Positions 50,688 to 59,898 of a DNA stretch of 64,000 nucleotides are shown one piece after another (position 1 is the first letter of the stretch; each line of letters begins with the position of its first letter). This DNA is from Octopus vulgaris. Its lineage: Eukaryota. Below the pieces are notes generated by a model. It made no database searches and was not told the origin of the DNA. It saw only the letters and a program-made list of their open reading frames with translations. A program made the position numbers and the translations under genes. The stretch spans positions 120,466,001-120,530,000 of the forward strand of contig OX597816.1 of assembly GCA_951406725.2 (NCBI GenBank). Direction: 5' to 3'.

Positions 50688-51290
50688 ACGAGGGAGTTGA
50701 CAAACGAAAGAAGAGCACTCAACACATTTATTGATTTATTGGTAGTTACTTGTATAGATCAAAATAGTTTGATTCAGATTCCTTGGTACTCTGAGTTTCA
50801 AGCGTCTTGCTAGTTTTCGGCCATTTGAGTCTGACTGAGAGTTCGATTGAAGAGAGTCAATGTTTATTACTGGACGTTAGTCTGAGATTGGTCGATCAAG
50901 GTCACGCAGTATCGATGGTATTTTAGCGATAGCACTAGATGAAAAATTCTGCATACTCACCCGTATAAGTACTGTTGCATACACGCAGAAATATGGGCGT
51001 ATACATATACGTATATACATATATAACCCCACGTCTATCGCCCCTTCCTACTTCCCTCCAACCACACGACTGATATCTTGTCCACCACGTTGTCGATTTC
51101 CTGTTCACCACGCGTCAGTTTCCTGTTCACCATGCGGTATTTTCCATGTAAGTGCTGTTGTTGAAATACCATCAATAGAGCGTGACCTTTCTCGACCAAT
51201 TGCAGGCCAACGTCCAGTAATAAACATTGACTCTCTGCAATCGAACTCTCAGTCAGCCCCCAATGGCCGAAGACTAGCACGCGCTAGGAA
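50688..51290. mobile_element. Fold-back element with hammerhead motifs and a ~110-bp one-sided tail
   Basis: Arms ~50800-50955 / 51132-51286. + arm ends TGG CCGAAGA CTAGC-acgc-GCTAG GAAA. The minus copy continues GAAAC TCAGA GTA CCA. Confidence 0.85.
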
Positions 51291-51653
51291 AAAAAAAATA
51301 TATATGCTTGTATGTATATATATATGTGTGTGTGTGTGTGTGTGTGTGTGTGTGTGTGTGTGTGTGTGTGTGTGTGTGTGTGTGTGTGTGTGTGTGTGTG
51401 TATGTATGTGTGTGTGTGTCTTGGTGTTGTTTTTGTCCCGCACCACCGCTTGATCAACGGCTGTTGAGTTGTTACGTCCCAGTTACTAAGTGGTTCGGCC
51501 AAAGAGACCACTGGAATAAGTAACAGGCTTTAAAAAAATGTACTGGGATTGGTTTGTTCGACTAAACGCGTCGAGGCGGTGCCCCAGCATGATCACCGTT
51601 CTGTGTCTGAAACTTTATCCTATTTCCACTTTTCAAATAATTGATAAAGTTTA

Positions 51654-51891
51654 TTAATAGTTATCGCCAAGCTAATATAGCAGTCCAGAAATATAGGACG
51701 TATGCTGACCTCCCCTGTTCGAAGGTTCGTGCGTCACATAGCTAGCTAGAGGCGATGGCCTTTTGGAGCTAATCAACGGCAGCATTCGTCCTATATTTCT
51801 GGGCTGCCATATTAGCTTCGCGATAACTATTAATATCCAGTACCGCTGCCGTAGTCTTCTTTAGAGAGACTTAGAAATTTTAATATTTCTA
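51654..51891. mobile_element. Fold-back insertion with tail and a 12-bp TSD
   Basis: TGATAAAGTTTA at 51642-51653 and 51892-51903. Arms 51654-51707 / 51780-51833, tail 51834-51891. Confidence 0.85.
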
Positions 51892-53474
51892 TGATAAAGT
51901 TTACATTTTATTTTTATTTTACGTGAGTTAATTTATGATTTATATTTGAGTTAAACTTGAATACCAATTTTGTAAGCAATTCTACATAACGAAATCGCTT
52001 ATTCTAAAATACTTTTGCAGATTAAATGATTAAATGAGAGATGAAAGTGGCAGTCAGTAAGATCTGCTGAAGTTTACTTAGATGTATATGTGTGTATATC
52101 CATCCATCCATCCATCCATCCATCCATCCGTCCGTCCGTCCGTCCGTCCGTCTGCCTGTCTGTCTGTCTATCTATCTATCTATCTATTTATCTAGCTATA
52201 TAATATCACTTTCACTCTGTTGTTAATCCTGGAGTTTACTCTTTTTAGTTCATTAACGGGTACAGACTGTCGGTTATAATTATAAATGAGAGACTGAATT
52301 TTTGCAGATCATATTTCCGAAAATCCATGATATCCGCAGAACTAAAATGATTATTAACAAAGGGAGCAGAGTAAACAAGTTGTTTAATTTACAATTTTCG
52401 TTTTCCTACAAAAACTATATCAGCAGATGTCCGTTTCATAAAAGAATAATTAAAAACACATAAACTACACCGTAGCTATATGATTTATACATTTTCTGGT
52501 GACAGAAAACGATATCATTAACTGACTTATTTTATTTTACGTTTATCCTTTCCTCTATTCCTCATCATATTTATTGACCAGTGGACTTAAATTGTGGTTT
52601 ATTCTGTATTTATTGTTTTATATTTTTTTCTATCTTGGTTTCACTCTTGAACTGCAAATGTGTTCATATGAACACATCTACTCGGTTTTGGGTATAAATT
52701 CATGCAAATATATACGATTTCTGTATCATATGTATTCTATACAGCATTTTGATTGGGTAACATCCGATTGCATTGATATAATGACATATCGTAAGTCTAT
52801 CGTTCCATATATTATATATTGTAATATAGCAACACTCATAAGTTCGAATGCCGGTAAAACAATTGTAAATTGTAAATTATATAGTAAAACAATTTGCTCA
52901 CTCTATTCTCCTTGCTAATATATATATAGGAAGGGAGAGAGATTTAGATATATAACTGTATTTACTCTGTATTCTCTTGACGATCTACTCATATGTTTAG
53001 TTCTAACAACTGATTATCAGTAACGTTTTATCTTAATGAAATCAATATATATAGATATTGTACTTGTGTGTGTATCTGTGTGTGTGTGAGTGTGTCTGCG
53101 TGTGCGTGTTAATGTGTGAGTGTGTTAGTGTGTTTGTTTGTGTGTGTGTGTGTGTGTATGTGTGTCTCTGTGTGTAGCGCATCTGTGTTAGAAGTATAGA
53201 GTCAATTATCATTGTGAGTTGGTAAACCAGATTATCTCCTTATTACTAACTCACTGAAGAGTAATATTGTCTATGGCTGACTAATGCCAGCCACACGACC
53301 TATGTATGAGAAAATATTGTTTATCAACACACATACTCACACAAACACACACACACACACACACACACACACATGTATATGTATATATGTGTAAGTGCGT
53401 GTGTGTACGTGTGTGTACGTGTATGTACGTGTATATAAACTATATATATGTATATGTATATATGTATATACATA

Positions 53475-57110: not shown

Positions 57111-57899
57111 AAAAAAATAATAAATTCAGCTTTTCTGTAGATGAAAGCATAATTATGATTATTTCTAATAATAATAATACGGCTATAATAATTAATAACG
57201 ACAGAAGCAGTACCAATAGCAAATGGTAATCTCAGTTTGCAAACTAACGTGGAGGTTGTGCTGGAACACATAACACTGCGTTATTTTTCTTGAAAGGATC
57301 TCTCATAAGGATTCGTGGTGCATAAAATCACTCTTTTTTTATATCATTGTCAGAGAGAATCGTCTGCTACGGCCGCTGGAACTGTCAGATCACGTGATTT
57401 CATCCTGCTATCGGTTTCTCAGTTACAGGTATCCAGCAGCAGGACAAGTTCTGAATCCCCCGTCAACAACATATAGAATCTCATTGTCTATTCAGGCACT
57501 GGTGCCGCAAATAGTGTGTTTATCAAAAAATAATTGATAGTGACAAAAGCAGTATTAATACCAAGATTAATGTTGATCTCAAACTTAAGGTCGAAGTTGT
57601 GTTAGAACACAGAATACTGTGTTATTTACCTTGAAAATATCTCTCATAAAGTCTCGCGGTCTATATGTTTATGTATTTGTCTTGCAAGATTCTTGATGTG
57701 AAAGCGTGTGTTGAAACAGATATTGTTATACTCGTTTTTCTAATTAAACATGCACTATTTATTTGATCTCCACTTTAGTTTTTATTCGTATTATTTTTAG
57801 CCTATATATCTGTCAAAGTTCTTTCGGCACACGTCTCGTGATCACATTAGTGACTCTCTGCCCCATGTGCTCCTCTTGTCTTTCTTATTCTACTTTGCC

Positions 57900-59280
57900 T
57901 AGAGATTTGGTAAAGGAGCAACCGAAAATGTTTCAAGAAGAAATAGAACTAGATTACTCGTGTGAATATAATGACGTTTGGCTCCGTTTCTTTTCAAGAA
58001 GAGACATGGCTTAAACTATTATGTAGTTTGTAGCGATAAACGTTCGAAAAACAAAGACGCAACAGTTGTTTTCGTTGATGCGAAATTTATTTTTGATGCA
58101 CAATTCTATCTTGAGACGCTCTACAAAGCCGATGAGGCTGCTTTGTGATGGATATGTTATAAAAAAAATCAAAACAAAACAAATACTAACAGCTGAGGAT
58201 GCAGAATCACTGACAGGTTATAGAAGTTCGAGACATTGTTTTACGGTACTAGGCTACTCTAATTCTACGTGGAACCCATAAGCTTAAGTTGCTAGTAATC
58301 GATAATAGTTTATGTCTTATAGCCGTCACAAATATGACTCATTTTGTATTGATTTACAGCACCAATGAAGCATGGATGGATTACGACTAGTATTTACACT
58401 AGAATGATCTGAAAAATATTTTGTCTGTGGAGAAAGAGCTCATCCTGACTCTTATGATAACACTTATTTTAAACATATTCTGCGCAACCAAAAACAGAAT
58501 TTCTTGTAAAAAGAAAAACGTTTCCGGTATTTACCTTAGCTACTAATTCAACTTCTGAGCAACAGTATTTCACATTCTAATAAATCTAAGCATCGTTTAT
58601 TGTTTATGAGCTACATACTAAGTATAGTTAATTCTGGCAAACCAGTACATGAGTTTCTTAAAGAATTTAATGTGCAAGACATATTTAACTGCATTCCCAA
58701 TACTCGGAAGTCTTAAACAAATGTATACCTTGTATCTAGTAAAGACAGTGGAAATTACTTTAGAGAACTTAGGAAAGCATATTATGTAAAACAACTTTCT
58801 TTTGTTCATGATGTAACTAATCTTGCTTATGAAGCTCTTACATCGAAGGTGAAGATAATATTGCCGAATGGATGAATGTAAATGACGCAGCAGCTAATAT
58901 ACTTCATCATAATGACTCGGAAATTGCGCAGATGGTTGTAAGTCGGAAAAAAGATGGCGGTGGATAAGAATGTAATAGTGAAATATCAGAAAGAATTTCT
59001 ATTCTTACGTTAATTCAGTTGTCAAATGAAGTGCGAAAAAGTATAAAGCAACACAATTCTATAACGGAATTCGAAATAATAAACGTTTAATTTCTGTAGT
59101 ATAAACTAACCAGAAAAAGACCACAGTATAGTAAAAAGCTAAATTCTTGCAACAAAGAAGTCGACATTTGAAAATCCTGTTTTATCAACGTCTGCTCATC
59201 CAGATGTGTTGCTATCATCATCACCAATTTCTGAAGATATAATAGAAAGATATTGTGACTGTTTTATCACTAACTCCTAA
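57900..59280 (+). mobile_element. pogo/Tigger transposase fossil
   Basis: Across frames: WLRFF.KRHG (CENP-B HTH), YKADEAAL*W, FTVLGYSNST.THKLKLLVI, AWM, EDNIAEWMNVND..DSEI. Confidence 0.65.
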
Positions 59281-59668
59281 CGATTCAATCCCCTATCAAC
59301 ATAGGCAGGGCGTTTGCAACTGCCTCTACTTTACGATATATAATTTTGCCAAGTAGTAAATTCCAGCTCTTCACTTTCAAACCGTCAGTGAAGAAGTTTC
59401 TTATGTCAGTCAATATAATTCATGGACCTGTACCTTTTATTTTTTCCATTTGTTTTCCATTTGTATCTCATTTTGGGATCTTTTTCCTTTTATCTATCTA
59501 CTTGTATTAATTTACACGGTATTTTAAAAATGGGATGAGGTGGTTTATTGTTGGGTAAATGAATATATGAATATGAATTACAACTACAGCTCATTCGATA
59601 ATCTTGCAACCTGCAGGTCCCAACGATACCCGATTATTTCCCTGTATGTGGGTATATATATATATATA

Positions 59669-59898
59669 TTGGTAAAAATGGTAAGATAACAAAAGAAAGA
59701 AAGAGACCTCAATATTATGTAAATAGAGGAAATTTATCTATAAAATAATGTTACATTTACTCAATAGTCAAGATAAAACTCTGAGTTTCAGATGCCGAAG
59801 TGGAAATCCACAACACCATCTCTTCGTGGATTTCCATTTCGGCATCTCAAACTCAGATTTTTATCTTGACTATTGAGTAAATGTAACATTATTTTATA
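59669..59898. mobile_element. Fold-back element with tail and hammerhead remnant, in (TA)n
   Basis: 73-bp arms 59739-59811 / 59826-59898 with few mismatches, 70-bp tail. Minus strand GAAGA GATG...CATC T GAAAC TCAGA GTT. Confidence 0.85.

What the first reader, a model, noticed from the sequence alone, without database searches (positions are those of the whole stretch)
50688..59898. Two otherwise dissimilar non-coding fold-back elements share the hammerhead module GAAAC-TCAGA-GT
Seen: 50688-51290 and 59669-59898 have different arm sequences but the same layout (tail + arm + loop + inverted arm, next to (TA)n). Both read GAAACTCAGAGT(A/T) on the minus strand. Combining the two arms of the first gives a complete type I hammerhead: TGG / CCGAAGA / CTAGC-acgc-GCTAG / GAAA / ACTC-a-GAGT / GUA / CCA. 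Established: Penelope-like elements carry minimal hammerheads with near-palindromic stem III in their pseudo-LTRs, which can be inverted and have a one-sided tail. Inference: these are ORF-less ribozyme-bearing retro-hairpins mobilised in trans by PLE reverse transcriptase, possibly an unclassified non-autonomous family. The core reads CCGA rather than CUGA in both arms.
Basis: partly seen in the sequence, partly recalled or inferred. Interest (0 to 1): 0.75.

Follow-up and report, generated by a model that had tools for sequence, protein, structure and literature searches.

The report
Truncated Hydra retrotransposons with U4C hammerheads
Both fold-backs are broken-off ends of two protein-coding jumping-gene families (Hydra-type Penelope-like elements), not a new gene-less family; the small twist is that both families carry a predicted self-cutting RNA with the same unusual core letter, likely acquired twice, whose cutting is untested.

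Summary
The layout and the shared 12-mer are real. The reading as ORF-less retro-hairpins is not supported. Each element is a 5'-truncated 3' end of a Penelope-like element (PLE) joined to an inverted partial copy. Other copies run upstream into RT-endonuclease ORFs (7 of 30 and 11 of 30 loci), including intact 717-codon frames with all Hydra-clade motifs. Outer ends are fixed (0 and about -61); all 16 inner junctions differ. Neither window copy holds an intact core. The shared 12-mer is the common Hydra-type stem III. The family consensuses are type I hammerheads reading CCGA instead of CUGA (4,271 pattern hits, control 0). Relatives of each family read CUGA, so U4C probably arose twice. Stems are conserved across that change (0/18 vs 11/35). 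5' breaks peak weakly at the predicted cut (7 vs mean 2.2). Activity is untested. The scan had no note on these sequences; its listed hammerhead notes in this genome concern differently wired motifs.

The parts
50690..50752 (-). E1 (family F1) tail, about 63 nt, between the inner and outer end sites; abuts (TA)n
   Evidence: 30-copy alignment; several inverted arms and short copies end at query 180-185, the full end is 246
50690..50954 (-). E1 tail-bearing, 5'-truncated 3' end of a family F1 Hydra-type PLE (about 265 nt)
   Evidence: Aligns to the 3' ends of longer F1 copies at 76-82%; 1,372 first-look candidates, 40 scored
50784..50823 (-). Decayed F1 hammerhead: TGG / CCGAAAA (G8 to A at 50815) / damaged stem II / GAAA / palindromic stem III / GUA (predicted cut 50787|50786) / CCA
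   Evidence: Sequence; family consensus core CCGAAGA
50952..51290 (+).
   Evidence: Aligns at 74-82% to about positions -444 to -109 of four longer F1 copies
59670..59730 (-). E2 (family F2) tail, 61 nt; abuts (TA)n
   Evidence: 14 of 16 inverted arms end at -59 to -64
59670..59826 (-). E2 tail-bearing 3' end of a family F2 Hydra PLE, truncated at the hammerhead core (C3 and 5' strand of stem I absent); predicted cut 59777|59776
   Evidence: 98% identical to the 3' pLTR of full-length copy L061; best copies 97-99%
59826..59898 (+). E2 inverted partial pLTR from about -142 to -61, with G12 and a stem III G mutated; abuts (TA)n

Best explanation
E1 and E2 are 5'-truncated copies of the 3' ends of two ORF-bearing Hydra-type Penelope-like retrotransposon families, each joined to an inverted partial copy, and were likely made when the element's own endonuclease nicked a (TA)n tract and its reverse transcriptase started twice on element RNA, once at the tail end and once about 61 nt further in. 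Shown: fixed outer ends, variable inner junctions, continuity with ORFs, intact ORFs in young F2 copies, and that neither window copy has an intact ribozyme. Inferred from the published Poseidon in vitro work (PMC11167929): two internal start sites define the tail, and uncut RNA is the usual template, which explains why copies run through the ribozyme. The shared 12-mer is the conserved G12-U16.1 half with the palindromic stem III that many Hydra hammerheads have. In the parent families the pLTR carries a type I hammerhead with a derived U4C core. I put about 55% on it being a slow, dimer- or protein-assisted ribozyme that still cuts, and about 35% on it being inactive.
For: Homology to the F2 ORF within 1.5 kb flanks in 7 of 30 F2 loci and 11 of 30 F1 loci (one F1 insertion is held twice, and some F1 hits lie in the other arm or a neighbouring copy). 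Conversely, 17 of 29 loci picked by F1 ORF DNA carry the E1-type arm downstream on the same strand. L061 has inverted arm, pLTR, ORF, pLTR, (TA)n. L130/L131 hold a tandem and inverted array of 2.58-kb units with three distinct intact 717-codon frames, each beside a CCGA hammerhead. Motifs RWK, DKT, CxCX5C, CxxC, CxH present and CCHH absent, as defined in PMC8557442. 16 of 30 F2 loci have an inverted arm, all 16 junctions differ, and 14 end at -59 to -64. For residual ribozyme function: stem I plus proximal stem II unchanged at 18 of 18 positions from subfamily C to Ea, against 11 of 35 other positions (p 0.01); a new stem I pair by a double change at the U4C step; 5' breaks highest at the predicted cut.
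Against: No bench or raw-read evidence of cutting. After U4C arose, stem conservation is not significant with the a priori stems (0/18 vs 4/35 and 7/35, p 0.29 and 0.08). The youngest subfamilies are predicted to misfold as monomers (stem I probability 0.00-0.13 vs 0.74-0.89 in older ones). The break peak is small: 7 at the cut, 6 at -3, Poisson p 0.008 on a motif-selected sample. The canonical control family peaks at -1, not 0 (by eye). The F1 ORF is known only from decayed fragments (26-55% identity to F2). Pfam support for the ORF is below cut-off (GIY-YIG E 0.014); the assignment rests on motifs, by-eye comparison with published alignments and Atlas neighbours.
Confidence: 0.88

Rival explanations
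1. E1 and E2 belong to ORF-less, ribozyme-bearing hairpin families mobilised in trans by PLE reverse transcriptase.
For: Most copies are short and lack ORF sequence within 1.5 kb (23 of 30 F2 loci, 19 of 30 F1 loci). Non-autonomous retrozymes derived from PLE pLTRs are reported (bioRxiv 10.64898/2026.07.22.740005, first fifth read).
Against: No shared hairpin junction among 16 inverted F2 copies. Lengths form a continuum up to full length. A hairpin transcript would pair its ribozyme with the antisense arm. Retrozymes are direct tandem repeats, not fold-backs.
Confidence: 0.05
2. The elements are as in the best explanation, but U4C killed the ribozyme and the families spread without it; U4C recurs only because the loss is tolerated.
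For: U4C considerably lowers activity in vitro (PMC3088659). Ribozyme mutants did not affect insertion in vitro (PMC11167929). Youngest subfamilies lose stem II pairs and gain a competing fold. Naiads spread without canonical hammerheads.
Against: Both lineages changed the same core position, and it is one known to be tolerated in vivo in a viroid. The other core and stem positions are unchanged in the F2 consensuses, although core and stem III were part of my search patterns. Break peak at the cut site.
Confidence: 0.35
3. U4C is a compensatory change: once loop 3 became a single A, the stem III strand (UCAG) could pair with the CUGA core, and C4 breaks that misfold.
For: In both lineages U4C appears with the single-A loop: F2 loop G to A; F1 sister loop mostly AA (15 of 25 scored), E1 type A (24 of 25). 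Computed core:stem III pairing in subfamilies D2 and E0 rises from 0.15 to 0.9 when U4 is put back.
Against: The effect is small in F1 (0.05 to 0.12) and absent in Ea. The abundant canonical family F3 has CUGA with the single-A loop and a predicted mispairing of 0.96; Penelope-3_HM has the same combination.
Confidence: 0.15

Closest known systems
Hydra clade of Penelope-like elements, closest Hydra-1_Obim (Craig et al. 2021, PMC8557442)
   Same: Short unit (<3 kb), single ORF with C-terminal endonuclease, RWK, DKT, CxCX5C linker, CxxC and CxH, no CCHH, (TA)n targets, type I hammerhead in the pLTR; stem III actc-N-gagt in five listed families; extra nucleotides flanking stem II. F2 matches Hydra-1_Obim at about 28 of 44 N-terminal residues (counted by eye).
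   Different: All 26 Hydra rows (25 families) of the paper's table read ctga; F1 and F2 read ccga. Hydra-1_Obim has another ribozyme sequence, so F1 and F2 are distinct families. F2's catalytic motif reads YKDD rather than YRDD.
PLE minimal hammerheads (Cervera and de la Pena 2014, PMC4209133)
   Same: Type I, palindromic short stem III that would need a dimer, opposite-strand pairs 100-700 bp apart, mostly solo truncated copies.
   Different: The core variant described in the parts I read is U3-A8, not U4C. The supplements of that paper were not checked.
Poseidon element PAc (Frangieh et al. 2024, PMC11167929)
   Same: Two fixed end sites that bound a tail, AT-rich targets, copies running intact through the ribozyme.
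   Different: Different clade; tail here 61-63 nt rather than 30-40; the F2 ORF starts well downstream of the ribozyme, not inside it.
Natural U4C viroid hammerhead (cited in Perreault et al. 2011, PMC3088659)
   Same: Same core change, reported as weak in vitro yet sufficient in vivo.
   Different: There a rare viroid variant; here the family state of thousands of genomic copies in two retrotransposon lineages.
Non-LTR retrozymes (PMC7229834, listing only; bioRxiv 10.64898/2026.07.22.740005, first fifth read)
   Same: Type I hammerhead, PLE connection, no ORF in the copy.
   Different: Retrozymes are direct tandem repeats with a full ribozyme per unit; E1 and E2 are one-off inverted truncations with broken ribozymes.

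Membership tests
Hydra-clade PLE | Single ORF, RT then C-terminal GIY-YIG-type endonuclease, unit under 3 kb | tested here: met
   F2: 717-codon frame in 2.58-kb units; weak Pfam GIY-YIG at residues 603-632; Atlas neighbours with PLE-type families. F1: collinear decayed fragments only.
Hydra-clade PLE | RWK, DKT, CxCX5C linker, CxxC and CxH around E and N, no CCHH | tested here: met
   All read in the F2 ORF against the definition. For F1 only the endonuclease half could be seen in fragments.
Hydra-clade PLE | Insertion into (TA)n | tested here: met
   Both window elements, and most of the 30 F2 and 30 F1 tail ends, abut TA-rich microsatellite.
Hydra-clade PLE | Placement in the Hydra clade on an RT tree with reference PLEs | not tested
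   Reference proteins were seen only in the paper's supplement; compared by eye.
PLE insertion architecture | pLTR, partial tandems, inverted 5'-truncated copy, one-sided tail | tested here: met
   L061, L130-L132; end sites at 0 and -61.
Canonical type I hammerhead (family consensus) | Core CUGAnGA ... GAAA ... UH | tested here: not met
   U4C in both families; all other core positions present.
Canonical type I hammerhead (family consensus) | Stems I, II and palindromic III | tested here: met
   F2: 5-6 bp stem I, 4 bp proximal stem II, 4 bp stem III, double changes at some pairs. F1: 3 bp stem I plus a distal helix that differs by paired changes from the sister subfamily, 3 bp stem II.
Canonical type I hammerhead (family consensus) | Self-cleavage | not testable with these tools
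   Only contig runs were listed; indirect break-point test weak.
Type I hammerhead (the two window copies) | Complete core and stems on one strand | tested here: not met
   E1 lacks G8 on one strand and stem III on the other; E2 lacks C3 and the 5' strand of stem I.
Non-autonomous family or retrozyme | Recurrent fixed internal structure, or direct tandem units each with a ribozyme | tested here: not met
   16 of 16 F2 junctions differ; F1 inner ends vary.

The most novel reading that the evidence does not exclude
Two Hydra-type retrotransposon lineages in this genome independently retuned their pLTR hammerhead with the same U4C core change, which keeps it folding and cutting slowly in vivo. 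The young family (thousands of copies, intact ORFs, a dated series of CUGA and CCGA subfamilies) records that cut as a pile-up of 5' ends, and is a natural experiment on what PLE ribozymes are for. CUGA-only searches would miss such families.
Probability: 0.3. Interest if true: 0.6.

Novelty: new variant of a known kind. Interest (0 to 1): 0.33.

Why it matters
The two window elements are ordinary retrotransposon debris. The by-product is useful: the role of hammerheads in Penelope-like elements is stated as unclear in PMC8557442 and PMC11167929. Family F2 offers a series of subfamilies (A, B, C with CUGA; D, E with CCGA) ending in young copies with intact ORFs. One can ask directly whether a weakened or dead ribozyme helps or hinders spread. 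It also suggests that descriptors fixed on CUGA undercount PLE ribozymes.

Tried and rejected
Rfam: no hammerhead among the listed window matches or on an intact copy; Rfam models do not fit this stem III, so this is not evidence against. Pfam, NCBIfam and PDB sequence searches gave only a sub-threshold GIY-YIG. Sequencing runs: no RNA holder listed and contigs only, so RNA ends could not be read. CpG decay as the source of CUGA in older subfamilies: rejected. F2 subfamily C shows 93 CTGA, 4 CCGA, 3 CTAA and 0 CCAA in the first 100 of 885 hits (by eye); the F1 sister shows 76 CTGA of 81 (by eye). In the CCGA subfamilies both decay products are rare or balanced: 43 CTGA versions of the youngest string, 153 CCAA hits. 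The D1 'CCAA' consensus is an artefact of my fetching loci from the CCAA list. The F1 tree is noisy because truncated rows carry flanking DNA: one 100/97 clade holds 32 E1-type rows, but the CCGA label needs 12 changes overall. The F2 tree used 43 of 87 copies (14 of 58 young ones sampled) and gives CCGA one change at only 72/85. No single tree joining F1 and F2 was built. Literature searches for U4C in PLEs found none in the listings; subscription papers and the supplements of PMC4209133 were not seen. Scan look-ups by words and by sequence were blank.
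Full report
Observation. Both fold-backs exist as described, each between (TA)n tracts with a one-sided tail. The 12-mer GAAACTCAGAGT occurs twice in the window, both on the minus strand, against 0.008 expected. A transcript of either element is predicted to fold into one long hairpin. 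The E1 minus-strand core has lost G8. E2 is cut off at the core, without C3 or the 5' strand of stem I.

Families. The genome is 2.8 Gb in 227 contigs; an octopus-like host is my inference. E1 matches an old family F1 (best other copies 77-88%; 1,372 candidates, 40 scored). E2 matches a young family F2 (97-99%; 736 candidates, 40 scored). Shared sequence runs upstream for variable lengths. L061 is a full F2 insertion: inverted arm, pLTR, frameshifted ORF, pLTR, (TA)n. L130/L131 hold an array of 2.58-kb units, in both orientations, with three distinct intact 717-codon frames. Homology to that ORF is found in 7 of 30 F2 loci and 11 of 30 F1 loci within 1.5 kb flanks. Of 29 other loci chosen by F1 ORF DNA, 17 carry the E1-type arm downstream on the same strand. 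The 'loops' of E1 and E2 are element sequence from the longer arm.

Clade. The F2 protein has RWK, DKT, a CxCX5C linker, CxxC and CxH flanking the conserved E and N, and no CCHH: the Hydra definition in PMC8557442 (section 11 read; passages; supplement parts 2 and 58 and search hits). By eye it is closest to Hydra-1_Obim but has a different ribozyme. Pfam gives only a sub-threshold GIY-YIG. Atlas neighbours score 0.96-0.99, and some carry GIY-YIG or RVT_1 on part of their members. No tree with references was built.

How the fold-backs arise. In 30 F2 loci, 16 have an inverted arm; 14 of these end at -59 to -64 from the tail end, and all 16 inner junctions differ. F1 shows a similar inner site about 63 nt in, and variable inner ends. 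This is the published PLE pattern of an inverted 5'-truncated copy plus tail. PMC11167929 (passages and second part of main text) shows for a Poseidon element that both DNA strands are nicked and extended, that two internal RT start sites bound the tail, and that uncut RNA is the main template. I infer the same here: two priming events at one (TA)n site, both stopping early. That step is not shown for these families.

The shared module. It is the G12-U16.1 half with a palindromic stem III. Five Hydra families in the paper's table have actc-N-gagt, and 8,846 genomic hits join such a stem to a canonical CTGAnGA core, control 3. So its presence in two unlike families is expected.

The U4C core. 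CCGAAGA joined to the module gives 4,271 hits, control 0; 97 of the first 100 are F2-lineage, 3 are F1 (by eye). All 26 Hydra rows in the paper read ctga. The F2 lineage forms a series: A, B, C read CUGA (median divergence 0.084, 0.036, 0.048); D and E0 read CCGA (0.036, 0.024); Ea and Eb read CCGA (0.012, 0.000) (n = 5, 7, 16, 25, 5, 44, 18, with both arms of some insertions counted). Subfamily C is truly CUGA (93 of first 100, no CCAA). F1 has a CUGA sister (25 of 30) beside the CCGA E1 type (16 of 27, plus both CpG decay products). F1 and F2 proteins are only 26-55% identical in fragments. Two origins of U4C are therefore the parsimonious reading; tree support is modest. In contigs of four runs under four organism labels, no alternative to C4 reached 10% at that place (L061 1587; likeness filter 85%, which may drop older subfamilies).

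Is it active? For: from C to Ea, stem I and proximal stem II are unchanged (0/18 vs 11/35, p 0.01), and a new stem I pair appears by a double change at the U4C step. U4C is a known natural variant, weak in vitro but sufficient in a viroid (PMC3088659, passages). 5' breaks in young F2 copies are highest at the predicted cut: 7 against a mean of 2.2 at 25 other positions, p 0.008, next highest 6. That count used loci covering most of the first 100 of 516 hits; I left out 12 regions judged to be point mutants or small deletions and two of three tandem repeats, the script dropped rows where element sequence resumes, and a few rows are misplaced by internal point changes. Against: constraint after U4C is not significant with a priori stems (p 0.08-0.54), Ea and Eb are predicted to misfold as monomers, and the canonical control F3 peaks at -1 (by eye). 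PLE minimal hammerheads cut poorly and only as dimers (PMC4209133, parts 1-2 of 4 read). I put 55% on slow activity and 35% on none. An anti-misfold role for U4C fits D2 and E0 (0.15 vs 0.9) but not F3.

Literature. Searches showed no report of U4C in PLE ribozymes in the listings or passages I saw. PMC6155905 was seen as passages, bioRxiv 10.64898/2026.07.22.740005 as its first fifth, PMC7229834 as listing only. Subscription papers, Repbase and the supplements of PMC4209133 were not seen and may hold such variants.

Verdict. The two elements are ordinary truncated, inverted insertions of autonomous Hydra-type PLE families (0.88). The lasting point is a U4C hammerhead, probably derived twice, in families that kept spreading: a new variant of a known kind, interest 0.33.

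Noticed in passing
window 5626-5952: A third Hydra-type remnant: C-terminal endonuclease homology at 5793-5626 on the minus strand (E 4e-5) beside a fold-back at 5837-5952; no hammerhead with palindromic stem III found.
   Followed up: partly
L134, L140, L141 (G000 C1): Family F3: abundant Hydra-type PLE with a canonical CUGA core, the same stem III and a very short stem II; 40% identical to the F2 ORF over 366 residues. It makes up about half of the first 100 of 8,846 canonical hits (by eye).
   Followed up: partly
L351; L285/L286; other pairs: Some insertions are perfect hairpins whose two arms both begin at, or within one base of, the predicted ribozyme cut site, in both F2 and F3.
   Followed up: no
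L130/L131 (G000:C1:57208000-57223500): Near-identical head-to-tail array of F2 units with an inverted block, three frames intact; the RT motif reads YKDD rather than YRDD.
   Followed up: partly
window 60040-60640 and beyond: Open frame with non-LTR (LINE-like) reverse transcriptase motifs directly after the (TA)n that flanks E2; unrelated to E2.
   Followed up: no
window 22933-23562, 43655-44110, 51652-51835, 61567-61795, 8538-9840, 12048-13348: Further fold-backs or inverted pairs; none carries the GAAACTCAGAGT module; identities not worked out.
   Followed up: no
L353 (G000:C2:102041000-102047500): Four subfamily C pLTRs at about 1.4-kb spacing with no Hydra motifs in the listed frames; probably a local tandem duplication.
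   Followed up: partly
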